From: an uncultured Candidatus Saccharibacteria bacterium | Lineage (GTDB): Bacteria > Patescibacteriota > Minisyncoccia > Phycocordibacterales > UBA918 | DNA: 64,000 nt | Assembly (NCBI GenBank): GCA_964601615.1 | Contig: CAZRNZ010000001.1 | Location: forward strand, 7,658-71,657 | Reading direction: 5' to 3' | Shown: in pieces, positions 32,599 to 48,993 of the stretch | How positions within the stretch are numbered: the stretch's first letter is position 1 | Layout: each line of letters starts with the position of its first letter | The notes under the pieces: model-generated | What the model saw: the letters and a program-made list of their open reading frames with translations, nothing else | The model's database searches: none | What the model was told of the DNA's origin: nothing | Program-made: the position numbers and the translations under genes

Positions 32599-32646
32599 AA
32601 AATGGCCGGAAAGGAGCTTCGCTCCTTTCCGGCCATATTTTTTATT
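32599..32646. terminator. Bidirectional terminator.
   Basis: aatggccggaaaggagc-ttcg-ctcctttccggccat followed by atttttt. Confidence 0.65.
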
Positions 32647-35426: not shown

Positions 35427-37172
35427 ATGAGTTCTAAAATACTTTCCAAAGGAAAAGATGAGGAGATTTTTAGAGAGCCACTTGGTCATATATTGGTCGA
35501 AAAACTACTTCGTGAGGCAGGTTTTGAAGGAGATGTTTTAAGTAGTGCTGATGTTCTCGATAAATATTCCAGAGACGAAAGTATTTTTTCTATCAAACCA
35601 CAAATTGTTCTCCAACCTGTAAACGTCAAAGATGTCTGTGTTGCTGTTTCTGTTTTGGGAAAAGAAAAAGAAAAGTTCCCTTCCCTTTCCTTAACTCCAC
35701 GTGCCGCTGGTACAGGACTTGGTGGTGGTTCACTCACTGATTCAATTGTGCTTGATGTAAATACACACATGAATCGTATTTTGCGTGTTGGCCGTCAGGC
35801 TGGCAAAGTTACCTTTACTTGTGAATCTGGTACTTGGTGGCGCGATGTCGAAAAGGAATTAAAAACCTACGATAGTTATTTGCCGCCCTTCCCTGCTTCT
35901 AAACAGATTTGTTCTATTGGTGGTTCTGTTGCTAACAATGCAGCTGGTCCAGATTCTCTTCGCTTTGGTCATGTAGCAGATTGGGTGGAGTCGCTAGAGG
36001 TTGTTTTGCATGACGGAAAAGCTTATGAGGTACGTCCGATAAGCTACAAAGAATATAAAAATATCATCACTAAAAAAGACGCTTTAGCTAAAATAACTAA
36101 AGAAGTTTTTGAACTAATCAAAAAGAATGAATCTTTAATTAAGAAGTCTCGACCTAAGACAGCCAAGAATACTGCGGGTTATTCTTTGTGGGACGCATTA
36201 GATGTTTCAGTTGATGATTTCATGGCTGGCAAAGGCAAGTTTGATTTGACCAGAATTTTTTCTGGCAGTCAGGGCACGATTGGTATTATTACAAAAGTCA
36301 CTATGCGAGCTGAACCAATTGCTCACGATGTAGAACTCGTAGCGGTGCCAGTATTTGACCTAGCTTCAGCAGGCAGAGTTGTATTGGAATCAGTAAAATT
36401 TGATCCAATCAACGTAGAGGTTTTTGATGCCCTTACATACAAAGCAGCAATGGCTAATCCTGGTTTTTTCCGAGCTAGAATAACTGGTCTGCCATATTTA
36501 GGAATGCTTTGGTCCATGTACACAACCTACTTTTTCCGCTGGAAAAGAAAGTTGCCAGAATTTGTTCTCTTGGTGACCTTAGATAAAAAAAGTCTGAAAA
36601 AATCTGGTAAAGAAACTAAAGACTTACTTATCGAACTTAGAAAAGTTGGTGGTGAGACAGCCATGTTGGTAGAGAATAAAAATGACAAGCAGATGTTTTG
36701 GCAGGTACGCGATGCCAGTTTTTTGCTTTCCAAATTACTTGACCCCAAGAAACGACCTGCAGCTTTTCTGGAAGACATGACTGTTCCGTCAGAACATATT
36801 GCTAAGTTTTTTTCTGATATTAAATATCTTTTGAATAAATATAATGTGCAGGCGGCAGTGCATGGACATGGTGGCAATGCTCATTTCCACTTCTATCCCC
36901 TACTTGATTTCACCAACAAGCAAACTCCAGATTTGATAATGAAAATGTCTGATGAGTTTTTCCATACCGCAGTAAAGTACGGTGGCAGTATTTGTGGTGA
37001 ACACAATGACGGAATTATTCGCACTCCGTATTTAGATTTAATGTTTTCTAAAAAGACCTTAGATTTATTTGAAAAACTAGAAAGTATTTTTGATCCTAAA
37101 GACATCTTCAATCCTGGTAAAAAGGTAAATCCAAGATTTGATATAAAGACTTCAATTAGAAAGATTAATTAA
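35427..37172 (+). CDS. FAD-linked oxidase (FAD_binding_4 family, GlcD/D-lactate dehydrogenase-like).
   Basis: FAD-binding 'PRAAGTGLGGGS' motif and a C-terminal FAD-oxidase_C-like region. Confidence 0.7.
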   Translation: MSSKILSKGKDEEIFREPLGHILVEKLLREAGFEGDVLSSADVLDKYSRDESIFSIKPQIVLQPVNVKDVCVAVSVLGKEKEKFPSLSLTPRAAGTGLGGGSLTDSIVLDVNTHMNRILRVGRQAGKVTFTCESGTWWRDVEKELKTYDSYLPPFPASKQICSIGGSVANNAAGPDSLRFGHVADWVESLEVVLHDGKAYEVRPISYKEYKNIITKKDALAKITKEVFELIKKNESLIKKSRPKTAKNTAGYSLWDALDVSVDDFMAGKGKFDLTRIFSGSQGTIGIITKVTMRAEPIAHDVELVAVPVFDLASAGRVVLESVKFDPINVEVFDALTYKAAMANPGFFRARITGLPYLGMLWSMYTTYFFRWKRKLPEFVLLVTLDKKSLKKSGKETKDLLIELRKVGGETAMLVENKNDKQMFWQVRDASFLLSKLLDPKKRPAAFLEDMTVPSEHIAKFFSDIKYLLNKYNVQAAVHGHGGNAHFHFYPLLDFTNKQTPDLIMKMSDEFFHTAVKYGGSICGEHNDGIIRTPYLDLMFSKKTLDLFEKLESIFDPKDIFNPGKKVNPRFDIKTSIRKIN

Positions 37173-37180
37173 AGTAAATA

Positions 37181-37214
37181 ATAAGCTGATTAAATCTAAT
37201 CAGCTTATTTATAA
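37181..37214. terminator. Hairpin terminator at the left flank of the island.
   Basis: ataagctgatta-aatc-taatcagcttat followed by ttat. Confidence 0.55.
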
Positions 37215-37528
37215 CCTCTAGTTTACGTTACATCCTAGGTAAATCATCTGACTATCTAAGTCATAGGTAATCCTGAAGCATTGATATTCTGCCACACTCC
37301 CATTCCATTCCAAGAATTTATCTGATTCTAGCCTACTGGCTATTATTTTTCTTTAATGTTAGAAGTCCTTGTAGATGATTAATGCTAGGATGAAGAACTC
37401 TGCATGTTCTGCCATTACTTATGTAAGTAATTTAACTTTTCGGTTCACTTTAGAAAAGGCGTCTACTTTACCGCTGCTGATATTATCTCCAAGAGCTTCT
37501 GTGTGTGATCTGGGTGACTTCGGTTGAG

Positions 37529-39847
37529 TCAGTCCCTTTTAAATAATTCATTTATTTCCTCCCTGCTTCCTTCAATTATGTCCCTGTGGCTATCTTCATC
37601 AGCAAAATCTTTTGCAGATTCTTCCATCATCTCTAAAGCTCTATCAGCATGGTTATCACTCATTCTGTCTACGATTGTGGCTACATTGAAAGATGTCATG
37701 TCTAATACATACCTGCGTTCGGAATCTATAAAATTTTCGTTGATCGCTTGTTCAATTTCAGAATTGATGGAATATGTGTCAACTTCGTAGTCATCTGGAG
37801 CTATAAAATCAACATATTTAGTGTAATCAATATCTAAATGATCTTCTATATTATAAAGAATATGATCTTCATATAGCAGAGCAAGATGCTCTGCTATATG
37901 TTTATCTTGTATCTGTCTATCATAAAAGTATCTAAATAAATGCTCAAAGTCGAGATTGTCTATATTACTATTTAGATAAGCCCATAAAAAGTCAAATTTT
38001 TCTGGCACAAATTCTGTTTCAAAAAAAGATAATATGTAATAAAGCTTGTAGAAATCAATTAAGTTTAAGCTCTGTGACTCTTCTTTTTCCAGTGTGGTCA
38101 GACTAGATAAAACTTCAATTATTTTTTCACTGGCAAGATTATTTTCATCGCAGTGTATTAAACATACAAGCCAATTCCAATCTTTCTTAGCAAGTTTACT
38201 TTTATATAACGATTCAAATAAATTTTTCTGTAAATATTTAAATTCTAAATCAGTAATATAGTCATTTCTTTTTAAAGATTCTAAATATTGGATGGATTCA
38301 ATATTTGACAAGGCAAACAATAATTTATTTATCTCAGACTCGTTATTTTTAAAATAATTCTCAACTATATAGTCTCCAAGAGATGGATTAAAAAGAATGT
38401 ATTGAAATTCGTTTTTATCAAAAACTTTACTCCTACTTAGAAGTGAATCTAAAGCTACTTTAATAACGTAACTAAAGGAAGCTTCGTTATCAGAAGAAAA
38501 CTTATTGTAGTTACAAAAAATATCAAAAGAATTTCTTAGGTGTGATTCACTTATTTTTCCGTTATTAAATGCGACTAATAAAACCAGGGTTTTTGTACAC
38601 CTGTCTAACTTTTCGAAATAGTCCTCCCAAATATCACTCGGGTTATCAAGTTTTTCTTCTATGTAGGTAAAATAATCATTACTTTTTATTTCAGAAAACT
38701 CGACCCTCTCTTTTTCTAAAATGTATTCGATTATTCTTGGATTGAAATTACTATGATTAATAATCTTCCAATACTTTTTTTCAAGGTAAATTTGATCAAC
38801 ATAGTCAGGGTCTAATTCAGAAAAATACATATGTTTATACAATATGCGTGCTTTGTCTATCGGTCTTAGGTTTTCGATTTGTAGTACATATTCACTACCT
38901 TTAATATTTCCCTTCTCTAGGGAAGGGAATATTCCTCGTGCCTTATTTATGATGGTGGTGCGAGAATTTAATATAAATTTAAGTTTCTTGGATCGCGCTA
39001 CTCTGTCCATAAATAACATAATTTGGGAAGAATCATCTCCTTTGGAAATATCCATAAAATTTTCACCAAGAAAGTCATCAAAATAAAAAACTATGTTACA
39101 TTCTTGATTTGCTGACACAATATCTTCAGCTTCTTTGATGTTCCTGATTGAATAGAAAGAATATCCATTCTTTACATATGTAAATGCAAGCATATTTGAT
39201 AGTGTTGTCTTTCCAATGCCTGCTTCTCCAGTGATTACTACAACATTCTTTTCATCCAAACGTTTTCCAGCTTTATCAAAATCTTCAGTGTAAACAAATC
39301 GAACAGAATTTTTCTTTATATTCTCAAGTAGAAAATCACTTTGTCCTTGCAGTCCGCCAGTAAGCGCATTTGCAATTGTCTGCCCTAAAATCTTTTTCAG
39401 AAGAATCTCTGAATATATGTATAGCTGTGTATATTTTTTAACAATGTCAAAATTCTCTTCTTTTGAGAGAAAACTCTGTATATCATCGAACCCCCAAATA
39501 TCTTCCACGCCTTTAATGAAGCCGTTCATAATAGATAGCATCTCAGCTTTTTTTAGTGGAGTGACTTTACCAGAAGTCATAAAGATATACCTTTCAGGGT
39601 TCAGGGCTTTGACTTTGTTCGTTTCTAATTTTAATGCAGATATAATACGAACAGATGTCGCGTCAGGATAATGCTTCGCCTGTATTATTACACTTTGATT
39701 TTCACCCACCCAAAATCTTCCATCGATACCGCTGTCTTTTCCAACGGTAAAACGTTCAACTCGTTTACCATTCTCTTTCTCAATGATGTCAGCACACAAG
39801 TTTTCAAATTCTCTTGAATCAAGTCTTTTAAGATCGTATTCGGTCAT
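37529..39847 (-). CDS. Mrr-type PD-(D/E)xK nuclease domain fused to a NACHT-like STAND P-loop NTPase, with a C-terminal alpha-helical region (Avs/bNACHT-like antiviral protein).
   Basis: N-terminal 'GKDSGIDGRF...VIIQAKHY' Mrr_cat-like motifs. Walker A 'ITGEAGIGKTT'. Walker B 'IVFYFDDFLGE'. NACHT 'TSR'-like 'ILNSRTT'. Long helical C-terminus. Confidence 0.65.
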   Translation of the reverse strand: MTEYDLKRLDSREFENLCADIIEKENGKRVERFTVGKDSGIDGRFWVGENQSVIIQAKHYPDATSVRIISALKLETNKVKALNPERYIFMTSGKVTPLKKAEMLSIMNGFIKGVEDIWGFDDIQSFLSKEENFDIVKKYTQLYIYSEILLKKILGQTIANALTGGLQGQSDFLLENIKKNSVRFVYTEDFDKAGKRLDEKNVVVITGEAGIGKTTLSNMLAFTYVKNGYSFYSIRNIKEAEDIVSANQECNIVFYFDDFLGENFMDISKGDDSSQIMLFMDRVARSKKLKFILNSRTTIINKARGIFPSLEKGNIKGSEYVLQIENLRPIDKARILYKHMYFSELDPDYVDQIYLEKKYWKIINHSNFNPRIIEYILEKERVEFSEIKSNDYFTYIEEKLDNPSDIWEDYFEKLDRCTKTLVLLVAFNNGKISESHLRNSFDIFCNYNKFSSDNEASFSYVIKVALDSLLSRSKVFDKNEFQYILFNPSLGDYIVENYFKNNESEINKLLFALSNIESIQYLESLKRNDYITDLEFKYLQKNLFESLYKSKLAKKDWNWLVCLIHCDENNLASEKIIEVLSSLTTLEKEESQSLNLIDFYKLYYILSFFETEFVPEKFDFLWAYLNSNIDNLDFEHLFRYFYDRQIQDKHIAEHLALLYEDHILYNIEDHLDIDYTKYVDFIAPDDYEVDTYSINSEIEQAINENFIDSERRYVLDMTSFNVATIVDRMSDNHADRALEMMEESAKDFADEDSHRDIIEGSREEINELFKRD

Positions 39848-39878
39848 ATGTAATATGTTTTACAATTTGCCAATTTTA

Positions 39879-42092
39879 TTATGGCAATAATCCACAAACA
39901 TCAGTATATAATTTTTTTAACTCATCAATGCTCATATCAAGTATTGGTTCATACATAAAAGAATTGAGATGAATGTTCTCTGGAGTCATAATATTTACTC
40001 TTTCTAGAATAATAAGGGCATTTTTCAGACTATCATCTCTCACAGAATCATCTTTATATCTTTCAAATAATTCTCGCGTTTGGTTAACTGAAATTCGACT
40101 TCTATCCGTAATTTTAGCCAACATGTACTCCTCAGCTTTCTGTCGTATTGCTATAGCAAGAATAATTTTATTTTCCAGATTAAACTCCTCATCTCGTATC
40201 GTAGATGCTACTGTCAATAAATGCTGATAGACAATATCTGTATCAGCAATAGTTGCATCAAAGTCATCCCTGTCTATATGCTCTTTAAAGATAAGTTTCA
40301 AATCAGAAAATGTAATATTGCCTGTGTTTGTTTTAGAGTGTAGTAAACATGTTAAAGTGCTGAAATCATCACCGTGAGCAGTTGAGCTGAGAGATCTTCT
40401 GCTGTATTCGATTAGATTTCTGACAAAAGGAATCAAGGCCAAAATATGCTTTTTTGCATCGTCAGCTGTGAAATCTTTATCTTTATACTGTCCACTTTTT
40501 AGACAGTTCATCCAAGTTATAAAGGGTGGATTTTGATACACTTCTTTGATGAGACTTATCCCGTCAAGAGTTTTAATTGCGTGTTTCTTACAATCTCTTG
40601 AAAGACCTAGTCTGCTAGTTATTGTCCTGTAGAAGTCAAAATTGTGAGTAAGGATTATTGAGTAGAAATTACTACCTTTATTGAGGTCATTTAGATATTC
40701 AACAATTGCATATTTGTTTTTATAATCAAACGAATCAGCAATGTCATCAATAATAAAAACAGTTTCTTGATTTTGTAATTGTCTCGATTTAATTTCAAAA
40801 ATAACATTAAGTAAGTAAAAAGCCCGTCTCTCTCCCTGACTTAGGATATTATCTACCATTGTCTTACGTTCGACCGGCTTCCCTTGGAATGAAAAATCAA
40901 TAGCAGGTGTTTGATTGTTTAAAACAGCATCTGCTTTATTATTGATTGCTATCTTAAAAGGTACATTTGCAAATCGGTTTTCAAACTCACCAATAGCTGC
41001 TTCCCATGCTGATTGACCATCTTTAGCCTTTTGGATTATTTCCTCTAAATCTTTTTCTTTGCTCTTGTATAAATCGACCAATACCTCAATACTGGGTGAG
41101 ATCTGTTTCAAGAACCCAAACCATACCTCTCTTTTAAAATCATCGTAATTTACTAACTTTGCAAGAATCTGTTGATTCTTCTTTTGAGTGATAACTTTTT
41201 TAAAGGCCCTTAATGTTTTTGTTTTATCTAGCTTTTTCTCAATTTCTTGAAATAACTCGCGTAATTTTTCATCATTAAATATCTTTTCAACCTCTTCATT
41301 TAAAATTATTGAAAAATCTTCAGACTTTTGAATTTCACCATGTTTTTTCAGTAATAATTTATGTCCCGTGTTGAAATACTCATCTCCCTCTAGGGATGAA
41401 TTTAAAGATTTTGCCTCAGTGGTACCAAAGATGTTTTGGGCATTTTTACCAAAAAACTCAGAATCACTCACGAGTTCCTCATATTTCTCTATGTAGTTTT
41501 GTAATAGCTGAAAGTTCTCACTCAAAAAATCCCGTACCTCATTTTTTGGATCAAACACATCGTTGTATTTAAAATCAAAAAATTCTTTTGCAGATTTAAT
41601 CTCTGGCAGAGTTGTCTCAAAAATCTCAAATATGTTTTTCTTTTTTAGATATGAAAAAGCATCATTGATTTCTGCCTCGTAGTTACCACTACCAGTTATT
41701 TTTTTAAGTCCTGATAGTGTAGCTTTTTTTTGGGAGTCAATTTCTTTGTATATTGTTAGATATTCTTTTCGGGTTTCTTCATCTGCTAGAAGTGTAAGAA
41801 CCTCTTCAGAATTAAATGCTTTGTCGTTATAGGGTTCAATGACACAAATATTTTCTGGCTGCACAGGTATTCCGTCTTCTCGAAACACATCAAAGGTAGG
41901 CATTAACGAGGTATCCATTTGGTCGCATGGTTTACTTTTTGACGAAATATCTTTGAATGTTTTGGCAAAGGAGGTCTTCATTACTCCGTTGGCTGCATAA
42001 ATAGCGATAGTTTTACATTTTGAAAAATCAAACTCACCTTCAAGCTTTTTTATACCGTAACAGTTTTCAAATTTAATGGCTAATTTATTCAT
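39879..42092 (-). CDS. PrrC/RloC/AAA_13-like ABC-type ATPase with a degenerate Walker A, a long coiled-coil insert, and an uncharacterised C-terminal domain.
   Basis: N-terminal 'IAIYAANGVMKTSFAKTF' resembles the AAA_13 'IYGRNGSGKST' P-loop, with the second Gly replaced. Walker B/D-loop 'VFIIDDIADSFD' lies about 410 aa downstream. The intervening region is Lys/Glu-rich and helical. Confidence 0.55.
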   Translation of the reverse strand: MNKLAIKFENCYGIKKLEGEFDFSKCKTIAIYAANGVMKTSFAKTFKDISSKSKPCDQMDTSLMPTFDVFREDGIPVQPENICVIEPYNDKAFNSEEVLTLLADEETRKEYLTIYKEIDSQKKATLSGLKKITGSGNYEAEINDAFSYLKKKNIFEIFETTLPEIKSAKEFFDFKYNDVFDPKNEVRDFLSENFQLLQNYIEKYEELVSDSEFFGKNAQNIFGTTEAKSLNSSLEGDEYFNTGHKLLLKKHGEIQKSEDFSIILNEEVEKIFNDEKLRELFQEIEKKLDKTKTLRAFKKVITQKKNQQILAKLVNYDDFKREVWFGFLKQISPSIEVLVDLYKSKEKDLEEIIQKAKDGQSAWEAAIGEFENRFANVPFKIAINNKADAVLNNQTPAIDFSFQGKPVERKTMVDNILSQGERRAFYLLNVIFEIKSRQLQNQETVFIIDDIADSFDYKNKYAIVEYLNDLNKGSNFYSIILTHNFDFYRTITSRLGLSRDCKKHAIKTLDGISLIKEVYQNPPFITWMNCLKSGQYKDKDFTADDAKKHILALIPFVRNLIEYSRRSLSSTAHGDDFSTLTCLLHSKTNTGNITFSDLKLIFKEHIDRDDFDATIADTDIVYQHLLTVASTIRDEEFNLENKIILAIAIRQKAEEYMLAKITDRSRISVNQTRELFERYKDDSVRDDSLKNALIILERVNIMTPENIHLNSFMYEPILDMSIDELKKLYTDVCGLLP

Positions 42093-42098
42093 ACATTC

Positions 42099-43190
42099 TT
42101 ACCGCAAAAATCTAATCTGCAAATTTAGTTTCATTCGCTGTTCGCGGTTTTCTTCATAGATTTTTCCAAACCTATGACGAATAGTACTTGGTGTATCTAG
42201 TTTTGTATTGTGAAAGAGATAGTCCTCAAATTTGTCGCGGTTATAAAGATGGTAACAGACAATATCACCGTCTTCTTTCACAACAATGTAACCACCGTGC
42301 GCTTCAGTGTATCCATCCCAATCTTTACTCGGCATCATTCCCAGGGCGATACTTGATAGAAAACTTTTTATGTTCATCACTAACATTTCTTTAGTGAAAT
42401 CAATCTGCTCCATAAAGGTAGTATCGTTGGCAATCTTATCCATCAAATCCTTGATGGTAGTTGCTTCTCCCATGTAGTAGTGTTTCAGCATCTGAGCGAC
42501 AATCTTGGGGAATATCGAATCAATTTTTCGAAGGTTACGCCTAAAAATGTCGTTATCCATTCCTATATACTCAAGCTTTGCGCCCACATCATAGGTTAAT
42601 TTTGCAGCATCTCTAACAGACAAGTTGTTGCTACTTTCCACGGGTTTATTATCTTCAGTAGCAATTCTATATAAAAAATTAGTTGCTCCAGATGCATTAA
42701 GGAGAGTTGCGGGCGAACCGAGCATTGATTTGATACTAAAACCTAGCTCTGGAAATTCAGGAGACTTCTTATCATGTAAAACAATTGTTAAGTCGGCCTT
42801 TTTGGCACTCGACGCACGCATTTGGGTACAATAGAGATCGTTCATTGATTCTGTCGCACTTGCAACCTCAAATGTTGTTCCTTCTGAGTTTTTAATCTGT
42901 TCAAAAACTTTAGCAACGCCACCCTTGATTTTTTCCAAATTTACCACACCTATCTCCTCATTTTCACTTGAAATAACAACCAGTCCATCGTTTTTGGAAA
43001 TGTCGTACTCCCTCTTTCCAACTGCCTCCTGACGAATAATTTTCAAAACAATATGAAAATTATCTTCAAGTATTTTTAGATTTTTATCTGCTGTAAAAAC
43101 TTTTCCATCAGTCAAGATTTTAATAAAGGCATAGAATTCAGACCATTCTCCTTTATTGCCTTTGAGAGTTGTAGTAATTTTATTTGTCAT
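42099..43190 (-). CDS. Type II restriction endonuclease, HpaII-like (predicted CCGG specificity).
   Basis: N-terminal 'KGNKGEWSEFYAFIKIL' recalls the RE_HpaII family. Size is about 360 aa. It overlaps by 11 nt the upstream M.HpaII-like methyltransferase gene. Confidence 0.5.
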   Translation of the reverse strand: MTNKITTTLKGNKGEWSEFYAFIKILTDGKVFTADKNLKILEDNFHIVLKIIRQEAVGKREYDISKNDGLVVISSENEEIGVVNLEKIKGGVAKVFEQIKNSEGTTFEVASATESMNDLYCTQMRASSAKKADLTIVLHDKKSPEFPELGFSIKSMLGSPATLLNASGATNFLYRIATEDNKPVESSNNLSVRDAAKLTYDVGAKLEYIGMDNDIFRRNLRKIDSIFPKIVAQMLKHYYMGEATTIKDLMDKIANDTTFMEQIDFTKEMLVMNIKSFLSSIALGMMPSKDWDGYTEAHGGYIVVKEDGDIVCYHLYNRDKFEDYLFHNTKLDTPSTIRHRFGKIYEENREQRMKLNLQIRFLR

Positions 43191-44847
43191 ATTTTTCTAG
43201 GGTTTCAATTATTCTTTCCGCAACTGCTTGAATTGCTGGGACAGCAACAGAGTTACCAAGCTGTTTCATCGATTGAACACTTGATACCTCTTCTGGAAAC
43301 TCAAACCATTTGGGGAATCCTTGCATCTTCAAGCCTTCTTTAGGTCCAATCTGCACAACTTTTCCGTCCACACGATACGCGTCCCAATTTCTGCGGTCAT
43401 TAATACTACTGCCACGACCCCCAACACGAAGGGTAAAACCAACATCTCTATCGCATTTACCGCCAAATATATCTGACATGGTGTACTTCAACTCTTTTAC
43501 TGGTTCTGGAAATTCAAAAGGAATTGTATTATCACGAAAACCAACCATAAACAAACGCGGCCGATGTTGTGGAACTCCAAAATCTGAAGCTTTTACAATT
43601 TTCGCGTGGAATGAATACCCAAGATCTTCTTCGATAATTCGTTTAATTGTTTCAAAAGTTTTTCCGCCATCGTGAGCATATAATCCACGTACATTTTCAA
43701 GAAAAAACGCTTTTGGCTGCTTTTCTTTCATTATGCGAACTACATCAAAAAACAACGTGCCGCGCGCTTCTGCAAAACCTTTTTTGAAACCTGCTTGTGA
43801 GAATGGCTGACAAGGAAATCCGCCTGTGATTATGTCAAAATCAGGCATTTCTTTTTCGTTGACCTTTGTTATATCTCCGACAAAATTACCACTTCTGAAC
43901 ACGTCGGGTGAAACTTTGTAAAAATTATGTCTATATGTACTTCGTGCTGGTTCATCCCACTCCGAAACAAAAACGCATTCAGCGCCGACATTATGAAATG
44001 CAACATGAAAACCACCGATACCTGCAAAAAGGTCGATGAATTTATGCTTTGTTTTTGTCAGTGGTTCTGGTGCTTTATCGTTGACTCCTAGAAAATACAT
44101 ATGACGTGAATCGACAAGAAGGCCAAATAGTGACCCTTGATTACCTTCAGCAACATAATCAGTCGCTTTCGGTTCCATTTTTTGTAATTCGGCAAGAATA
44201 CTATGTACACCTTGTTCAGCAATAATAAGAAAATCTATGACGTTTATACCGATAATCTTACCTGCTTCAATAATTCGGGCAGCAACCTGTTTGTCTTCGT
44301 TACTCGGTGAAGGGTCACCAGATGGGTGATTGTGAATAACAATGACACTAGCAGCATGTTTCTCAAGTCCAGGAGCAAATACTTCTCGCGGATGGATAAT
44401 ACTTTTGTCCAAAGTGCCGATAGATACAATTTCTTTATGTACTAAAACACTTCGAGCGTTGAGGTAAAGACAAACCAAGTGTTCCTTTTTTGCTGTTTTG
44501 AGTTCAGGAACCAATATCGCAGCATCAATGGCAGACAACACCATATGTTCCTCTTCGCCGTTATGTTTGTCATACATACGTCGCGCCAGGGCAAACATTG
44601 AAGCAATTTGCAATGCTTTGACATCTCCTATTCCAGAAATTTGTTTCAAATCTTCCACGGTTGCGTCCATTAGATTATTACCAAATTTTCTGGATATTTT
44701 TTGAGCAAGTAACTTGACGTTTGTGCCTTTGATACCACTTCCAAGTAAAATAGCGAGTAGTTCACTGTCGGTGAGAGCATCGCTACCTTTTCCAAGAAAT
44801 TTCTCGCGTGGTCTGTCGTATTTTGGTGTATCTTTGAGTTTAGCCAT
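43180..44847 (-). CDS. Fusion protein: an N-terminal RadC-like JAB/MPN domain joined to a C-terminal DNA (cytosine-5)-methyltransferase (M.HpaII/Dcm-like).
   Basis: Residues 1-250 carry the HhH 'LSDSELLAILLGSG' and JAB motif 'IVIHNHPSGDPSPSNED'. Residues ~270-555 carry motif I 'FIDLFAGIGGF', motif IV 'GGFPCQPFSQAG', motif VI 'FFLENVRGL', and 'GNSVAVPAIQA'. The reading frame is continuous across both parts. Confidence 0.8.
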   Translation of the reverse strand: MAKLKDTPKYDRPREKFLGKGSDALTDSELLAILLGSGIKGTNVKLLAQKISRKFGNNLMDATVEDLKQISGIGDVKALQIASMFALARRMYDKHNGEEEHMVLSAIDAAILVPELKTAKKEHLVCLYLNARSVLVHKEIVSIGTLDKSIIHPREVFAPGLEKHAASVIVIHNHPSGDPSPSNEDKQVAARIIEAGKIIGINVIDFLIIAEQGVHSILAELQKMEPKATDYVAEGNQGSLFGLLVDSRHMYFLGVNDKAPEPLTKTKHKFIDLFAGIGGFHVAFHNVGAECVFVSEWDEPARSTYRHNFYKVSPDVFRSGNFVGDITKVNEKEMPDFDIITGGFPCQPFSQAGFKKGFAEARGTLFFDVVRIMKEKQPKAFFLENVRGLYAHDGGKTFETIKRIIEEDLGYSFHAKIVKASDFGVPQHRPRLFMVGFRDNTIPFEFPEPVKELKYTMSDIFGGKCDRDVGFTLRVGGRGSSINDRRNWDAYRVDGKVVQIGPKEGLKMQGFPKWFEFPEEVSSVQSMKQLGNSVAVPAIQAVAERIIETLEKYDK

Positions 44848-44854
44848 ACATTGA

Positions 44855-45079
44855 TTACTTCAAAAGTTTGTCACTTGTGACTCCAAGCGCTATAGCAATG
44901 CGTTCGATGGTAGCAAGTGTCGGATTGCCTTTTCCAGCTTCAAGATTGCTAATGAAAGCTCTGTCGCACTTCAACGCTCTGCATATATCGCCTTGAGACA
45001 TACGCTTATCCTCTCGAACACGTTTCATATTTTTCGCTAGTCGTTTTGGTGCTTGTTGCATATCATTTCCACAGTGCAA
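44855..45079 (-). CDS. XRE-family HTH transcriptional regulator (controller-protein-like). The start is probably the ATG at 45061 rather than the TTG at 45079.
   Basis: HTH_3 motif 'RMSQGDICRALKCDRAFISNLEAGKGNPTLATIERIAIALGV'. It ends 7 nt before the methyltransferase gene. Confidence 0.7.
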   Translation of the reverse strand: MHCGNDMQQAPKRLAKNMKRVREDKRMSQGDICRALKCDRAFISNLEAGKGNPTLATIERIAIALGVTSDKLLK

Positions 45080-45081
45080 TC

Positions 45082-45093
45082 ATTATACAAGAA
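45082..45093 (-). promoter_or_regulatory. Extended -10 promoter (TGTATAAT) of the defence operon.
   Basis: The minus-strand sequence reads cttgTATAATgattgcactgtggaaATGatATG, about 20 nt upstream of the regulator's ATG. Confidence 0.4.
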
Positions 45094-45315
45094 TATTGTA
45101 TTGTGTGCTAATGATTTATAATACAACAGTGGTACAGAATTGGATATTTCTTTGGTTGTGGGGCGAGCGATAGCGAAGCACATCAAACCCCATGAGTATA
45201 CAGAAGTACAAAGCCACCACGCGCCTGGCGCGCCCTGCTTCGGTGCAGAATAGCGATTTATTTATGAGCCTTCTCGTGATAGAACCAAATGATTTCATTG
45301 CCTCGTAAGGTCATT

Positions 45316-45927
45316 TTAGTTGGTCGGACTGATTTGCTCCGACCCTTCTCCAGAGATATATTTTAGATCAGAAAACACATCCTCAAACCCTGTGGCTTTT
45401 AAAATTTGCTTCGCTTCAATTTTAGTATCTCTTTTATCATCTAGATCAACACTTACTCTACATGCTTCTATCATTCCAGATATGTAAGCATTATCTAATT
45501 TGTGTTGTTTAGCTCCCGCAACCATAAGTGCCAAATACCAATCGTATACTGGTAAGCCACTTATATATTTTTCAGTTGGAGCAATGTATGTCCTTACATT
45601 ATTCAGTACTTTACCCTCAAAAATTACCGTAAAATCTTCTTTTACGATGTAACCACCGTTACCCCTACCTTCAGCACTGTCTAGTTTTATTATTTCGTCA
45701 CCACTATCGTCAATTTCAAATAGAACTCCATAAACAATATCAGACTCGTTGCACGTTTTTAGTAAGGTCGCTTTGGCTGAATCATCTTTACTTTCTTTGA
45801 TAAGTATTACCTTATAGCCCATAACAATTGCTTTGCCGAGAGGTTCCGCACTTGTACACCGTTTTGGTGCCTTGAGCCGTTCTGTCAGCATGTTTGAACC
45901 GTATGCGAAGTATTTCATATAGGCCAT
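45316..45927 (-). CDS. Gamma-glutamyl cyclotransferase / AIG2-like (GGCT fold) protein.
   Basis: N-terminal 'YFAYGSNM' hallmark of the GGCT/AIG2 fold, plus a downstream acidic catalytic-region candidate. Confidence 0.55.
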   Translation of the reverse strand: MAYMKYFAYGSNMLTERLKAPKRCTSAEPLGKAIVMGYKVILIKESKDDSAKATLLKTCNESDIVYGVLFEIDDSGDEIIKLDSAEGRGNGGYIVKEDFTVIFEGKVLNNVRTYIAPTEKYISGLPVYDWYLALMVAGAKQHKLDNAYISGMIEACRVSVDLDDKRDTKIEAKQILKATGFEDVFSDLKYISGEGSEQISPTN

Positions 45928-45954
45928 TATCTCTCAAAAGTGACAAAAATGACA

Positions 45955-47010
45955 CTAATTTGCAACATCACCAAATAACGAGCCTTGGTTTTTGTTCTTC
46001 TCATCGAATTTCTTTTTTTCTTTTTTTAGTTCCAAATCCTTTTTGTGTTGAACTAAATTATCATTATGGGATGTGACTCTCTTTACATACAACCTTGGTT
46101 TGCCAAATTTACCATTTACATAGTCGTAGAAGCGACTAATGTCAAAAACTACACCTATATTGTCTCCACTAGTAAATGAGATTTCTTGATTCAAGATTTG
46201 ATTTTTATATTCATCATCTTGCATATAAAAAAATATATTTTCACCATCTTCGATAATGATTTGATTGTCTTCATCGAAGACATCAGAGCCATAATAGACA
46301 CCCTTCCACGGCACACCCCTGCCATATTGCTGTTGTTTTTCGATAAATGGTTGTGATAATTGTATATTTCCAGATAAATCAATCTTTAGAAACTCTTTTT
46401 CTTTCGGAATTTCTTCTATATAGTTCTTAAAATCATCTCTTTTTATTTCAGTTTGAAATATCCTTTGTTTTTCTTCAGATATTGTCGGTTTAATACTAAG
46501 AATATCTCTGTCTGCCATTACAGACTGATAAAAAATATTTTTCTGTTTTTTAGGATAATACGAATCGCATATCTCTTCTACCTTTTGTATCTGTTCATCG
46601 CTGAGATTAAAACTTTTACATTTTTCTACTATTCCTAAAGTATTAAGGTCTGATGTAGTGTCGTTCAGTCTTATCTGACTACTAAACAATAATGCTGCCA
46701 ACAAGGTAGTAACTGCCAAAGCTACACCCTGATTATCATTTAAAAATTTAACTACTGTATGCTCTTTAAAAGAACCTTCTTCTGGAGGTAACGTTAAAAT
46801 CTCAAAATGCTCGTCTGGACACAATGTCTTTATCAAATACGATATGATCTCCACTTGTGCCAAGGCACAAGTGTTTCTGACGTGAAAATTTATTGCATGA
46901 ACATCATCACTGGTGAAGTTATAGTGTAGTTCAAGGGTTATTTCTTTTTTAGTCAAATCCGTTCCCATTTTTAACTTTTTGTATTGATATGAATCATTTC
47001 GTTTCTGCAC
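45955..47010 (-). CDS. Hypothetical soluble protein (351 aa). Start is uncertain: GTG at 47010, or ATG at 46968.
   Basis: No recognisable motifs. It is AT-rich and overlaps or abuts the upstream membrane-protein gene. Confidence 0.45.
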   Translation of the reverse strand: MQKRNDSYQYKKLKMGTDLTKKEITLELHYNFTSDDVHAINFHVRNTCALAQVEIISYLIKTLCPDEHFEILTLPPEEGSFKEHTVVKFLNDNQGVALAVTTLLAALLFSSQIRLNDTTSDLNTLGIVEKCKSFNLSDEQIQKVEEICDSYYPKKQKNIFYQSVMADRDILSIKPTISEEKQRIFQTEIKRDDFKNYIEEIPKEKEFLKIDLSGNIQLSQPFIEKQQQYGRGVPWKGVYYGSDVFDEDNQIIIEDGENIFFYMQDDEYKNQILNQEISFTSGDNIGVVFDISRFYDYVNGKFGKPRLYVKRVTSHNDNLVQHKKDLELKKEKKKFDEKNKNQGSLFGDVAN

Positions 47011-47443
47011 TAGAAATCATAAATAACCAATTCATCACTATTATTAACAAACTGACCGCTGGCAAATACGCAAAGCCACCTAATAAGAATGGGTATAAGT
47101 ACGCGCTTATGCTACCAATCCACTGATTATTCTCATCCGTAGCCAGGGCAAGAAAGAACACAACATAGGTGAAGCAGATAATTGTGGACACCAATATCCA
47201 GGTTAAATAATCTAACTGTCGACTAGATAATTTGTATTTTTGCCACTCAAAAACCAAATAGTTGGTAACGGCAAAAAATATAATCATGCCGGACTGCAAA
47301 ATAATCCCACTAGTCTCCTTAGGCTCAGTTCCAGCAAAACTAAATATTGCTTCAATTACTACTGGGAAAAACACAGCCAGCATTACCACTAATTGTATTT
47401 TCTTTTCGACGCTCTTTATCTTTTCCTTGACTGTTAATTCCAT
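46994..47443 (-). CDS. Small four-TM membrane protein (149 aa).
   Basis: Four hydrophobic helices (LVVMLAVFFPVVIEAIF, IIFFAVTNYLVF, ILVSTIICFTYVVFFLAL, LLGGFAYLPAVSLLIIVMNWLF). Confidence 0.5.
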   Translation of the reverse strand: MELTVKEKIKSVEKKIQLVVMLAVFFPVVIEAIFSFAGTEPKETSGIILQSGMIIFFAVTNYLVFEWQKYKLSSRQLDYLTWILVSTIICFTYVVFFLALATDENNQWIGSISAYLYPFLLGGFAYLPAVSLLIIVMNWLFMISSAETK

Positions 47444-47907
47444 ACATCACTTCTGTTTATCTATCAGCTTCAATAAATCCTCCTCTTTCTCATAGGCTCT
47501 CAATCTACCCTTCCAGCACACCCAGTCGATAACTCACACCATCGGTGGTTAAACGCCAATTGGCATCGGACAAGGGCCGAACGAATTAGTTTCTCTAGAG
47601 ACTTCTTGCTGTCGTACTCTTCTCGTTCTCCCTTTTGTCATACACGACGAAGGGAACAACAACCTAATGGGTCTTTGAGCTGAAGCTGTACGTAGTCAAC
47701 TTCGCTAGCGATGGGAGTCAAAAGCTCCTCTAGCTCCATAATACGTATTTTTCAGGTTTTTGCTACAACTCCTTCTATATACTTCTAACTATTTCCGTAT
47801 ACATAATCTCCTTTTGTGGCACAGAATAACGTTTTCGAAAAACGTCATTTTTGGGTACATAATTGAAATTATCAAGAGGAAAATCCAACTCCTTTTTATG
47901 ACAGTAA

Positions 47908-47936
47908 AACAGTCTCAAATTGAGACTGTTTTTGTA
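47908..47936. terminator. Hairpin terminator, usable in both orientations, downstream of tRNA-Glu on the minus strand.
   Basis: aacagtctcaa-att-gagactgtt followed by tttgt (plus strand) or tttact (minus strand). Confidence 0.5.
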
Positions 47937-47980
47937 TGCTAGTTCTGATCCTTCTCGAGTGCTCGAACTTGCACTCTACT

Positions 47981-48055
47981 TGGTGACCCCACGGGAAATC
48001 GAATCCCGATTTCTGCCGTGAGAGGGCAGCGTCCTAACCGTTAGACGATGGGGCC
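47981..48055 (-). tRNA. tRNA-Glu (anticodon CUC), with an encoded CCA end.
   Basis: The minus-strand sequence GGCCCCATCGTCTAACGGTTAGGACGCTGCCCTCTCACGGCAGAAATCGGGATTCGATTTCCCGTGGGGTCACCA folds into a cloverleaf (7-bp acceptor stem, anticodon loop CUCUCAC, T-loop TTCGATT). Confidence 0.8.
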
Positions 48056-48060
48056 AAAAT

Positions 48061-48137
48061 GTACAAGACCATTTCGTCGTTAGAGGGATGGTTGATTTGG
48101 GAAATCAACCATCCGACACCTTATAGACGATAGGGCC
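48061..48137 (-). pseudogene. Degenerate copy of the tRNA-Glu 5' half, followed by a perfect 13-bp-stem palindrome. It is not a foldable tRNA.
   Basis: The minus-strand sequence GGCCCTATCGTCTATAAGG matches tRNA-Glu GGCCCCATCGTCTAACGG at 14 of the first 15 positions and then diverges. A perfect 13-bp-stem palindrome (ggatggttgattt-ggg-aaatcaaccatcc) sits at 48086-48114. No T-loop or acceptor pairing is present. Confidence 0.3.
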
Positions 48138-48195
48138 AGTGGGCATATTTATAACAAATATTCTTGGTTTCGGGAAGAGATAGGGATTTAAAATA

Positions 48196-48226
48196 AACAG
48201 GCCGGAGCGAAGCTCCGGCCTGTTTT
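48196..48226. terminator. Bidirectional terminator.
   Basis: aaacaggccggagc-gaag-ctccggcctgtttt. Confidence 0.6.
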
Positions 48227-48240
48227 AAATCTAATCCAGA

Positions 48241-48993
48241 TTATCTGTTTGTAGAAAATTCTTCTACATCACCACAAGTGATAACATTTCTGTTGTTGTC
48301 ATTTATGAATCCAACACAGATGCTGAAGAAATAATCTTCATTTCTCTCCAGGTTGCTTACAGTTGCTGTGAAGTTATTGTTTCCATTAACTTGTCCGCTA
48401 ATTCTCACTTTCTCTAGACGATCAGTACGAGTACGAACATTGCTGTAGCTTGTGAAGTCATCTTCTACTTCTTCAACAAGATATTCGTCTGTTCCGTAAA
48501 CGAAGAATACTTCCCCGTTTCTGAAATCGTTCATATCTACTCTACCGCGTAGTTGAGCAGAATTACGACTGATACTGGTGGCATTATTTGTGAAAGCTTC
48601 CGGTTCATCATCACGGTAATCTCTGTCGTTGTAGCGATCGTTGTTTCTACTGTTTCTACCACTTCTTGGTTCACCTACAACCTGATTGTATTTTGTATTG
48701 TAGTTGTAATCGTAATTTGATTGGTAGTAATTTGAATTTCTTCTTTGGTCATTAATTTGAGCCTGAAGTTGAATAATCAGTTGTCTCAAATATGATTCCA
48801 ATTGAGCATTGCTCATTACAGTTGTGTTGCTCTGGTAGGTATTGAAGCTACTTGGAACATAGTAATAATTTGTTTGTGCACTCACATTATCCGTTGGCAC
48901 AGCTACTAAAGTAGCTGCAAAAACAACGAAAAATATAGCAATAAAACTCTTTTTCATATAAAGGTAAAGTACACCGAAATATGAAAAAGTCAA
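48241..48993 (-). CDS. Secreted low-complexity (Asn/Tyr/Arg-rich) hypothetical protein.
   Basis: Signal peptide KKSFIAIFFVVFAATLVAV. Region rich in N, Y, Q, R and D. Confidence 0.45.
   Translation of the reverse strand: MTFSYFGVLYLYMKKSFIAIFFVVFAATLVAVPTDNVSAQTNYYYVPSSFNTYQSNTTVMSNAQLESYLRQLIIQLQAQINDQRRNSNYYQSNYDYNYNTKYNQVVGEPRSGRNSRNNDRYNDRDYRDDEPEAFTNNATSISRNSAQLRGRVDMNDFRNGEVFFVYGTDEYLVEEVEDDFTSYSNVRTRTDRLEKVRISGQVNGNNNFTATVSNLERNEDYFFSICVGFINDNNRNVITCGDVEEFSTNR

What the first reader, a model, noticed from the sequence alone, without database searches (positions are those of the whole stretch)
45316..47443. Second island module: 4-TM membrane protein, 351-aa protein of unknown function, and a GGCT/AIG2-like protein
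What the sequence shows. Three co-oriented minus-strand genes sit directly upstream of the R-M operon. A 149-aa four-helix membrane protein overlaps or abuts a 351-aa soluble protein with no recognisable motif. After 27 nt comes a 203-aa protein that opens with the 'YFAYGSNM' signature of the gamma-glutamyl cyclotransferase/AIG2 fold.

Established knowledge. Pairs of a small membrane protein and a soluble partner are a recurrent architecture in abortive-infection and defence cassettes. GGCT-fold enzymes cleave gamma-glutamyl/amide bonds and occur in conflict-system contexts.

Inference. This trio may be an independent, uncharacterised defence or toxin module within the island. Alternatively, the GGCT-like gene could modify a peptide or nucleotide signal used by the neighbouring system.
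Basis: partly seen in the sequence, partly recalled or inferred. Interest (0 to 1): 0.55.

Follow-up and report, generated by a model that had tools for sequence, protein, structure and literature searches.

The report
Not a trio: a lone defence-candidate gene
The three neighbouring genes are real but are not a conserved unit: the middle one belongs to a published, still untested family of candidate anti-phage genes (PADLOC PDC-S42) that travels alone, and its family ends in a motif resembling the one that docks proteins onto the bacterial DNA sliding clamp.

Summary
All three minus-strand ORFs exist and have homologues. The middle gene most likely starts at the ATG at 46968, giving 337 aa rather than 351.

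The three-gene module is not supported. About 17 distinct loci hold a relative of the middle protein. None of them encodes a relative of the 4-TM protein or of the GGCT-like protein.

One related metagenome contig (L026) keeps the order 4-TM, GGCT, FAD-oxidase, PIF1 helicase at 39-60% identity. It has two unrelated genes where the middle gene sits, and no R-M block. The two outer genes therefore look like local backbone, and the middle gene like cargo in a variable slot.

The middle protein matches PADLOC PDC-S42 over its full length (E 8e-24). PDC-S42 is one of 145 untested "guilt-by-embedding" candidates. Relatives sit inside Type I R-M operons in at least two independent arrangements, and also beside a retron, Thoeris, a Septu-like ATPase and GmrSD.

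It has no Pfam family and no match to a solved fold (AF2 pLDDT 87).

New here: across 103 diverse members the C-terminus carries Q-L-S-L-F, the beta-clamp-binding consensus. This suggests the protein acts at the sliding clamp, but that is inference.

The GGCT-like protein keeps its catalytic motifs. No link to the middle gene was found.

The parts
45955..46968 (-).
   Evidence: Full-length hit to PDLC05016, E 7.9e-24. 50 homologues of 330-345 aa all start at this Met. GC 0.322 against 0.384 for the window.
45973..45987 (-). Codons for QGSLF (residues 328-332): the local version of the family-wide C-terminal Q-L-S-L-F motif, a putative beta-clamp-binding motif
   Evidence: Column counts over 103 members: Q 87, L 84, F 91, with variable flanks. 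Present in 100/178 family proteins, 0/120 GGCT proteins and 3/288 control ORFs. Consensus QL-x1-2-LF is stated in PMC7261172.
46867..46932 (-). Codons for residues 13-34 of S42: conserved polar cluster E13, H15, H24, R31, N32, C34 in the N-terminal ferredoxin-like domain (possible metal or catalytic site)
   Evidence: Conserved in 75-94% of 103 diverse members. Lies on strand 1, the following loop and helix 1 of the AF2 model.
46672..46728 (-). Codons for residues 81-99 of S42: hydrophobic helix, either buried helix 2 of the N-terminal domain or a membrane segment
   Evidence: It is the most hydrophobic 19-residue window at the same place in 61 diverse members, with a Kyte-Doolittle mean of 1.6 or more in 37 of 61. 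Modelled as helix 80-95 with pLDDT 85-92.
46994..47443 (-). 149-aa four-TM protein: lineage-restricted flanking gene, not a partner of S42
   Evidence: Four hydrophobic segments. Only three clusters among 5.8 billion, plus a 39%-identical copy in the syntenic L026. Followed by different genes in each locus.
45316..45927 (-). GGCT/AIG2-like enzyme gene (200-203 aa): flanking gene, probably catalytically competent
   Evidence: AIG2_2 2e-7 and GGACT 9e-6, both above the gathering score. Aligns to human GGCT with the YGSN motif and the LDxxEG Glu retained. 60% identical in the syntenic L026. Found in six different contexts.
47981..48055 (-). tRNA-Glu(CTC) bordering the variable region
   Evidence: ARAGORN. 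Rfam tRNA, 59 bits.
45215..45230 (-). Weak terminator-like hairpin after the GGCT gene. It may separate the three-gene transcript from the R-M operon.
   Evidence: Consensus scan only, and the number of sites is not above the shuffled expectation.
37529..45079 (-). Second variable slot, a defence block absent from L026: HTH controller, RadC/JAB-Dcm methylase, HpaII endonuclease, PDC-S46 ATPase, Mrr-nSTAND3
   Evidence: Pfam and PADLOC hits. L026 has only one 175-aa gene between GGCT and FAD-oxidase.

Best explanation
The interval is a mosaic, not a module.

**Backbone and cargo.** The 4-TM gene and the GGCT-like gene belong to the local chromosomal backbone of this Patescibacteria lineage. That backbone runs tRNA-Glu, 4-TM, [slot 1], GGCT, [slot 2], FAD-oxidase, PIF1. 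Slot 1 holds one horizontally acquired gene, a stand-alone member of the PDC-S42 family. Slot 2 holds the HpaII R-M system, PDC-S46 and Mrr-nSTAND3. The three genes are probably transcribed together simply because they are packed 25-27 nt apart.

**What S42 probably is.** It is most likely an anti-phage gene that works on its own.

**Proposed mechanism (inferred).**
- The conserved C-terminal QxSLF/QLSLF peptide docks the protein in the hydrophobic cleft of the beta sliding clamp (DnaN) on replicating DNA.
- Once there, it does one of two things. It may compete with polymerases for the clamp and stall replication of phage or infected-cell DNA. Or it may use its N-terminal domain (conserved Glu/His/His/Arg/Asn/Cys cluster) and its beta-rich C-terminal domain to act on the DNA.

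**Shown versus inferred.**
- Shown: family membership, lack of linkage to the neighbours, the contexts, the conserved motif.
- Inferred: defence activity, clamp binding, the downstream effect.

**My sub-probabilities.**
- Trio is not a module: 0.85.
- S42 belongs to the PDC-S42 family: 0.95.
- S42 is anti-phage: 0.55.
- The motif binds the clamp: 0.4.
For: **No linkage.** tblastn with the 149-aa and 203-aa proteins found no hit at E<=1 in the loci holding S42 relatives, apart from one 28-residue chance-level stretch (E 0.016) in L005/L013.

**Synteny.** L026 keeps 4-TM (39%), GGCT (60%), FAD-oxidase (57%) and PIF1 (60%) in the same order and orientation. It has unrelated 242-aa and 214-aa genes in slot 1 and a single 175-aa gene in slot 2.

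**Composition.** S42 has GC 0.322, against 0.369 and 0.376 for its neighbours.

**Family.** There is a full-length PADLOC PDC-S42 match. PDC systems are candidates derived from genes embedded in BREX, DISARM and Type I R-M systems.

**Embedding seen independently here.**
- hsdM-S42-hsdS-hsdR in about nine Patescibacteria loci.
- hsdM-hsdS-287aa-S42-hsdR in L038. There S42 is 33% identical and hsdM only 40% identical to the Patescibacteria R-M lineage.

**Other defence neighbours**: retron VII-A2, Thoeris ThsB/ThsA, a PtuA-like ATPase, PD-Lambda-3_A, PDC-S32, GmrSD.

**Motif.**
- Consensus Q-L-S-L-F with 82-88% conservation of Q, L and F inside an otherwise variable tail.
- Enriched against controls.
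- Present in distant Vibrio, Alphaproteobacteria and Parabacteroides members.
- Matches the published QL-x1-2-LF clamp-binding motif.

**Structure.** The tail has lower model confidence (pLDDT 64), as expected for a flexible docking peptide.
Against: - No member of PDC-S42 has been tested. The family is absent from the text of every paper searched.
- Several relatives sit alone among housekeeping genes (L005, L033, L034). That is neutral for defence.
- The Patescibacteria R-M loci that carry S42 are one closely related R-M lineage (hsdM 79-96% identical), so they count as few independent events.
- The window protein has QGSLF, with Gly where the consensus has Leu.
- Clamp-binding motifs are short and loosely defined. 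Binding cannot be tested here.
- The hydrophobic helix could mean membrane anchoring. With an N-in topology that would put the tail outside the cell.
- Backbone status for the 4-TM and GGCT genes rests on one syntenic contig. Other close GGCT homologues lie in variable or mobile contexts.
Confidence: 0.6

Rival explanations
1. The three genes form a lineage-specific functional module. A small membrane protein, S42 and a GGCT-fold enzyme would act together in defence or as a toxin system.
For: All three are on the same strand with gaps of 25-27 nt. No terminator-like site lies between them. A terminator-like hairpin and a promoter-like site follow the GGCT gene.
Against: They are never linked elsewhere. 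S42 occurs in more than 15 other contexts without them. L026 has both outer genes with unrelated genes in between. The 4-TM family has only four known loci, each with different downstream genes.
Confidence: 0.07
2. The 4-TM protein and the GGCT-like enzyme are a functional pair that frames a swappable cargo position. This would be a conserved docking or hotspot cassette in which different effectors are exchanged: S42 here, 242+214-aa genes in L026, and a protein with Sir2-like motifs after the 4-TM gene in L029.
For: The two co-occur in two loci with different genes between them. Every 4-TM homologue is followed on the same strand by different uncharacterised genes.
Against: The L026 similarity extends to FAD-oxidase and PIF1, so shared ancestry explains the co-occurrence. 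L029 has no GGCT within 4.5 kb. Five other loci with close GGCT homologues have no 4-TM gene.
Confidence: 0.1
3. S42 is not an immune gene. It would instead be a clamp-associated accessory of DNA replication, repair or mobile-element maintenance that hitchhikes in R-M operons and islands. Possible roles include modulating restriction near replication forks or stabilising the element.
For: Clamp-binding motifs are typical of replication and repair proteins (from my own knowledge, also of some transposases). Some members are solitary among housekeeping genes. No experimental defence data exist.
Against: The distribution is patchy and looks horizontally transferred, with low GC. It is embedded repeatedly and independently in Type I R-M operons and sits beside retron, Thoeris and Septu-like genes. 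This is the pattern used to predict defence genes.
Confidence: 0.2
4. S42 is a membrane-anchored abortive-infection effector. The central hydrophobic helix would span or insert into the membrane, and activation would kill the infected cell by membrane damage.
For: A hydrophobic stretch of about 16-19 residues is conserved in position but not in sequence across the family. Its Kyte-Doolittle mean is 1.6 or more in 37 of 61 members.
Against: In a confident AF2 model the helix is helix 2 of a beta-alpha-beta-beta-alpha domain. A stretch of about 87 columns of the model matches ferredoxin-fold proteins in Foldseek; which residues are covered is not given. The segment is short for a transmembrane span. 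A cytoplasmic clamp-docking tail conflicts with the N-in topology suggested by the Lys/Arg residues before the helix.
Confidence: 0.1

Closest known systems
PADLOC PDC-S42, a single-gene phage defence candidate (Payne et al., bioRxiv 10.1101/2024.01.29.577857)
   Same: Full-length HMM match (E 7.9e-24, residues 22-346 of the 351-aa ORF against 7-317 of 320). Same length class. Single gene. Relatives are embedded in Type I R-M operons.
   Different: This copy is not embedded. It lies in a slot between two backbone genes, next to a Type II R-M system, in a Patescibacteria genome. The candidate family itself has no tested function or described mechanism.
Type I R-M-embedded defence genes such as PrrC
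   Same: Same genomic habit: a lone gene nested between hsd genes.
   Different: No sequence or domain similarity. S42 has no ABC-ATPase or anticodon-nuclease domain. Dependence on the R-M complex is unlikely, since many copies lie outside R-M operons.
Beta-clamp-binding proteins carrying the QL[S/D]LF motif (polymerases and MutS; the SocB toxin as a clamp-targeting toxin, from my own knowledge)
   Same: A conserved pentapeptide with consensus QLSLF, 0-10 residues from the C-terminus and after a charged linker. It matches QL-x1-2-LF.
   Different: The rest of the protein has no similarity to any known clamp partner. Binding is untested. The window copy reads QGSLF.
Uncharacterised phage or prophage proteins in BFVD, including a DUF6575-annotated protein. 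DUF6575 is listed among domains of the E. coli defence systems validated by Vassallo et al. 2022 (PMC9519451).
   Same: Full-length Foldseek matches, probability 1.0, E 1e-9 to 6e-7 over 308-349 columns. DUF6575 is named as a domain of one validated system.
   Different: TM-scores are only 0.31-0.36. There is no sequence-level hit to DUF6575 or to any PD-T4/T7/Lambda model. The paper text does not say which validated system carries DUF6575.
Human gamma-glutamyl cyclotransferase (C7orf24; PDB 2i5t, 2pn7) and the AIG2_2/GGACT families, for the 203-aa protein
   Same: The YFAYGSN(M/L)LTER motif and the LDxxEG catalytic Glu align. Pfam scores are above the gathering threshold.
   Different: It has a C-terminal extension of about 50 residues. 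The substrate is unknown. There is no conserved partner gene.

Membership tests
PADLOC PDC-S42 | Protein matches a PDC-S42 HMM over its full length | tested here: met
   PDLC05016 E 7.9e-24 (22-346 against 7-317/320). PDLC05017 E 1e-12.
PADLOC PDC-S42 | Single-gene system with no obligatory partner | tested here: met
   No recurrent neighbour other than hsd genes in about 17 loci. Several copies are solitary.
PADLOC PDC-S42 | Found embedded within BREX, DISARM or Type I R-M operons (the basis of the candidate list) | tested here: met
   Met for relatives: hsdM-S42-hsdS and hsdS-x-S42-hsdR. The window copy itself is not embedded.
PADLOC PDC-S42 | Protects against phage | not testable with these tools
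   The PDC systems are described as untested. No paper mentions PDC-S42.
Beta-clamp (DnaN)-binding proteins | QL-x1-2-LF type peptide | tested here: met
   Family consensus Q-L-S-L-F. The window has QGSLF. 100/178 members match Qxx[LM]F in the last 20 residues, against 0/120 and 3/288 controls.
Beta-clamp (DnaN)-binding proteins | Motif lies in an accessible, flexible terminus or loop | tested here: inconclusive
   It is 0-10 residues from the C-terminus, with variable flanks. pLDDT falls to 64 in the last 7 residues. This is a model only.
Beta-clamp (DnaN)-binding proteins | Physical binding to the clamp's hydrophobic cleft | not testable with these tools
   No complex prediction or binding assay is available.
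   No locus with an S42 relative held a real match to the 149-aa or 203-aa protein; the only hit at E<=1 was a 28-residue chance-level stretch.
GGCT / AIG2-like (Pfam AIG2_2, GGACT) | Domain score above the curated threshold, the YGSN substrate-binding motif, and the catalytic Glu | tested here: met
   31.8 bits against a 27-bit threshold and 26.7 against 22.8. The alignment to human GGCT keeps YFAYGSN and LDxxEG.
GGCT / AIG2-like | Gamma-glutamyl cyclotransferase activity | not testable with these tools
   No assay is possible. The substrate is unknown.
tRNA-integrated genomic island | tRNA at one border, an integrase, and a direct repeat of the tRNA 3' end at the other border | tested here: not met
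   tRNA-Glu is present at 47981-48055. No tRNA-derived repeat was found in 36800-48100. No integrase domain was found among the island proteins.

The most novel reading that the evidence does not exclude
PDC-S42 proteins are a widespread class of single-protein immune effectors that dock on the bacterial sliding clamp through a canonical C-terminal QLSLF peptide. They would use the replisome itself as the place where phage replication is sensed or blocked. As far as the searched literature shows, that mode has not been described for an anti-phage system. They also have a fold with no solved relative.
Probability: 0.2. Interest if true: 0.75.

Novelty: new member of a known kind. Interest (0 to 1): 0.4.

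Why it matters
**For annotating this window.** The result stops a false three-gene system from entering the record. It shows that the island consists of two variable slots on either side of a conserved GGCT-like gene.

**For the field.**
- It extends the untested PDC-S42 candidate family into Patescibacteria.
- It independently reproduces the family's habit of sitting inside Type I R-M operons.
- It supplies the first concrete, cheaply testable mechanistic handle for the family: a conserved clamp-binding-type peptide at the C-terminus and a conserved His/Cys/Glu cluster in the N-terminal domain.

If the clamp link holds, it would tie a defence candidate directly to the replisome.

Tried and rejected
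**Searches on S42 that found nothing**
- Pfam, NCBIfam and PHROGs, run on the window protein and on 29 and 61 family members, gave only sub-threshold noise.
- A PDB sequence-profile search gave nothing.
- Foldseek against the PDB with two models (pLDDT 77 and 87) gave a best query TM-score of 0.20. The only hits were generic ferredoxin-like and weak OB-like partial matches.
- The viral contig scan and tblastn against phage genomes found no S42 relative.

**Ideas tested and dropped**
- PD-(D/E)xK nuclease in the C-terminal domain (D241...E253-x-K255). Dropped because only D251 and K255 stay conserved in the wider family, and the model places them in a helix.
- tRNA-targeted island. No tRNA-derived direct repeat and no integrase were found.
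- S42 as a retron effector in L001. The retron is already complete (DUF3800 plus RT type VII-A2), so S42 is only a neighbour.
- Sir2 identity for the L029 336-aa protein. The motifs are visible by eye, but there was no significant Pfam, PADLOC or PDB hit.

**Literature and other checks**
- No paper or supplement names PDC-S42.
- No paper in the library links clamp-binding motifs to phage defence.
- Rfam found nothing in the 537-nt gap between the tRNA and the 4-TM gene.
Full report
**1. The observation**

The window holds three co-oriented minus-strand ORFs:
- 46994-47443, 149 aa
- 45955-47010, 351 aa as the longest ORF, with a GTG start
- 45316-45927, 203 aa

Each has homologues in public data, so they are genes.

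The 50 relatives of the middle protein are 330-345 aa long, and all begin at the Met encoded by the ATG at 46968. The public gene call on identical DNA gives 149, 337 and 200 aa. The middle gene is therefore 337 aa, and a 25-nt gap separates it from the 149-aa gene.

The 149-aa protein has four strongly hydrophobic segments.

The 203-aa protein passes the Pfam thresholds for AIG2_2 and GGACT. It aligns to human gamma-glutamyl cyclotransferase with the YFAYGSN motif and the LDxxEG glutamate kept.

The next genes downstream are:
- an HTH controller protein
- a RadC/JAB-Dcm fusion methylase
- an HpaII-type endonuclease
- a 737-aa PDC-S46 protein
- an Mrr-nSTAND3 protein

**2. Is the trio a unit?**

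I collected loci that encode relatives of the middle protein from several sources: contig look-ups, one species-representative genome scan, one metagenome scan, a plasmid search and a viral scan. This gave about 17 distinct loci.

tblastn with the 149-aa and 203-aa proteins found no relative in any of them; the only hit at E<=1 was a 28-residue chance-level stretch (E 0.016) in L005/L013, and the later loci L033, L034 and L038-L040 were not screened.

Close homologues of the GGCT-like protein (55-76% identity) lie in five other contexts:
- next to small unknown genes
- before a DUF4238 gene
- between an ImmA/IrrE-DUF4411 pair and an Imm5-like gene
- before a P-type ATPase
- in L026 (see below)

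The 4-TM family is tiny: three clusters among 5.8 billion, plus one tblastn hit. Different genes follow it in each locus.

**3. The one locus that shares both outer genes**

L026 encodes, in order:
- a 4-TM homologue (39% identity)
- unrelated 242-aa and 214-aa genes
- a GGCT homologue (60%)
- one 175-aa gene on the opposite strand
- FAD-oxidase (57%)
- PIF1 helicase (60%)

The window has the same FAD-oxidase (35427-37172) and PIF1 (32642-34324) genes beyond its defence block, in the same relative order and orientation.

The simplest reading is a conserved chromosomal neighbourhood with two variable slots:
- Slot 1 lies between the 4-TM and GGCT genes. It holds S42 here.
- Slot 2 lies between GGCT and FAD-oxidase. 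It holds the 7.6-kb block of R-M, PDC-S46 and Mrr-nSTAND3 here.

S42 has lower GC (0.322) than its two neighbours (0.369 and 0.376) and the window (0.384).

A tRNA-Glu gene lies 537 nt upstream of the 4-TM gene. I found no tRNA-derived repeat and no integrase.

The three genes are probably co-transcribed. They are 25-27 nt apart, and the only terminator-like and promoter-like sites lie after the GGCT gene. Those are consensus matches only.

**4. What the middle gene is**

It has no Pfam, NCBIfam or PHROG family. It does match the PADLOC model PDC-S42 over its full length (E 7.9e-24).

The PDC systems are 145 single- and multi-gene candidates. They were derived from genes nested in BREX, DISARM and Type I R-M operons, and their authors explicitly describe them as untested. 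No searched paper or supplement names PDC-S42.

My own context survey reproduces the embedding:
- In about nine Patescibacteria loci the gene sits between hsdM and hsdS, with hsdR downstream.
- Those R-M operons are one related lineage (hsdM 79-96% identical).
- They carry different extra cargo next to S42: Thoeris ThsB plus ThsA-Macro, a PtuA-like ATPase, and a PD-Lambda-3_A-like gene.
- A distant member (33% identity) is embedded at a different position, hsdM-hsdS-287aa-S42-hsdR. That operon's hsdM is only 40% identical to the first lineage, so this is an independent event.

Elsewhere S42 sits beside:
- a complete type VII-A2 retron
- GmrSD plus a methylase
- a PDC-S32-like gene
- RhuM
- housekeeping genes only, with S42 as the lone insertion

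.

An exhaustive profile search finds 307 cluster representatives at 50% identity. Nearly all are 300-350 aa and unnamed.

**5. Structure and conserved features**

With a 103-sequence alignment AlphaFold2 gives a confident model (pLDDT 86.8, pTM 0.68). It has four parts:
- an N-terminal beta-alpha-beta-beta-alpha domain (residues 8-95)
- a helical segment (98-152)
- a beta-rich domain (156-301)
- a long C-terminal helix

Foldseek finds no solved structure that resembles it. The best query TM-score is 0.20, and the hits are only generic ferredoxin-fold and weak OB-like partial matches.

In the viral predicted-structure library three uncharacterised phage or prophage proteins match over the full length (E 1e-9 to 6e-7, TM 0.31-0.36). 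One is annotated DUF6575. DUF6575 is listed among the domains of the 21 validated E. coli systems of Vassallo et al.. This is a lead only, because no sequence-level link exists.

Conserved residues across 103 diverse members:
- N-terminal domain: E13, H15, H24, R31, N32, C34 (75-94%)
- C-terminal domain: F180 and W221 (invariant), D251, K255

A hydrophobic helix (residues 81-99) is conserved in position. In the model it is helix 2 of the N-terminal domain, so I favour a buried helix over a transmembrane one. I cannot settle this.

**6. The C-terminal motif**

The tail is variable and charged except for five columns:

| Position | Counts among 103 members |
|---|---|
| 1 | Q 87 |
| 2 | L 32, G 13, others |
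| 3 | S 39, D 12, others |
| 4 | L 84, M 10 |
| 5 | F 91 |

An acidic residue usually follows. The motif lies 0-10 residues from the end.

Exact QLSLF, QLDLF and QLNLF occur in distant members. The window protein has QGSLF. The Vibrio, Alphaproteobacteria and Parabacteroides members have QGDLF, QPNLF and QLTLDLF.

Frequency of Qxx[LM]F in the last 20 residues:
- 100 of 178 full-length family proteins
- 0 of 120 GGCT-family proteins
- 3 of 288 control ORFs

The consensus equals the bacterial beta-clamp-binding motif QL-x1-2-LF (which cites Dalrymple et al. 2001). I found no paper that connects such a motif with a phage-defence candidate.

**7. Most likely mechanism**

Shown:
- S42 is a stand-alone, horizontally mobile gene of the PDC-S42 family.
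- Its genomic habits are those of a defence gene.
- It is unrelated to its two neighbours.

Inferred:
- It protects against phage (about 0.55).
- Its tail docks on the DnaN clamp (about 0.4).
- Once docked, it either blocks clamp use or acts on replicating DNA through the conserved N-terminal cluster and the beta-rich domain.

The GGCT-like protein is most likely an active gamma-glutamyl-type cyclotransferase with an unknown substrate. It is conserved in the local backbone. The 4-TM protein is a lineage-restricted membrane protein of unknown role.

**8. Verdict**

- The module interpretation is not right.
- The defence flavour is right for one gene only, and that gene belongs to an already catalogued but untested candidate family.
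- The clamp-motif finding is the one new and testable element.

Noticed in passing
window 43180-44847 (-): The methylase of the HpaII-type R-M system is a fusion. An N-terminal UPF0758/RadC-like JAB domain (residues 5-217) is joined to a C-5 cytosine methylase (269-555). Separate RadC genes also lie a few kb from S42 in L008, L011 and L015.
   Followed up: partly
window 39879-42092 (-): A 737-aa protein matches PADLOC PDC-S46 almost end to end (E 9e-228) and PHROG 38705 (E 1e-128). It is a second untested defence candidate, directly after the HpaII endonuclease gene.
   Followed up: partly
window 37529-39847 (-): A 772-aa protein has an N-terminal Mrr_cat restriction-endonuclease domain and an nSTAND3 NTPase. 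It has the lowest GC in the window (0.31) and is the last gene of the block before the FAD-oxidase backbone gene.
   Followed up: no
window 47444-47980: A 537-nt stretch between tRNA-Glu(CTC) and the 4-TM gene has no convincing ORF and no Rfam match. Its purpose is unknown.
   Followed up: partly
L029 505-1515 (+): The 336-aa gene that follows the 4-TM homologue by 4 nt shows Sir2-like motifs by eye (GAGAS, NWD, LHG, CxxC...CxxC). It has no significant Pfam, PADLOC or PDB hit; the best was Sir2Tm at E 0.62. If real, slot 1 holds a defence-type NADase in that genome.
   Followed up: partly
L011 6600-7990; L009 6149-7961; L016 2736-3263: The same Patescibacteria Type I R-M operon lineage carries extra embedded cargo next to S42: Thoeris ThsB-TIR plus ThsA-Macro, a PtuA-like ATPase with a 130-aa partner, and a PD-Lambda-3_A-like gene. 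The gap around hsdS works as a small defence-gene hotspot.
   Followed up: partly
L001 4210-5988: A complete type VII-A2 retron (DUF3800 protein plus reverse transcriptase) ends 13 nt before the S42 homologue.
   Followed up: partly
L035 3128-6662: A 63%-identical GGCT homologue lies between an ImmA/IrrE (HTH-Peptidase_M78)-DUF4411 pair and an Imm5-like gene, with a recombinase fragment nearby. This GGCT subfamily also turns up in mobile or conflict-type neighbourhoods.
   Followed up: no
window 45955-46968 (-), residues 231-301: There is a weak NCBIfam hit to LAPAL_fam, a putative phage structural protein (E 0.0013, 18 bits against a 60-bit cutoff). Together with the three full-length BFVD structural matches, it hints that the beta-rich domain is shared with phage proteins.
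   Followed up: partly
window 38653-38694 and 46410-46451: A 42-nt direct repeat at 81% identity links the Mrr-nSTAND3 gene and the S42 gene. Both copies are in AT-rich coding sequence, so it is probably chance.
   Followed up: no
window 34427-35329 (+): A 300-aa ORF between FAD-oxidase and PIF1 has unusually high GC (0.46 against 0.38). It has no Pfam or NCBIfam match, and L026 has no counterpart.
   Followed up: no
window 48241-48993 (-): A 250-aa low-complexity protein, rich in Asn, Tyr, Arg and Asp and with an N-terminal hydrophobic segment, lies between murF and the tRNA. A strong terminator hairpin follows it (48195-48225).
   Followed up: no
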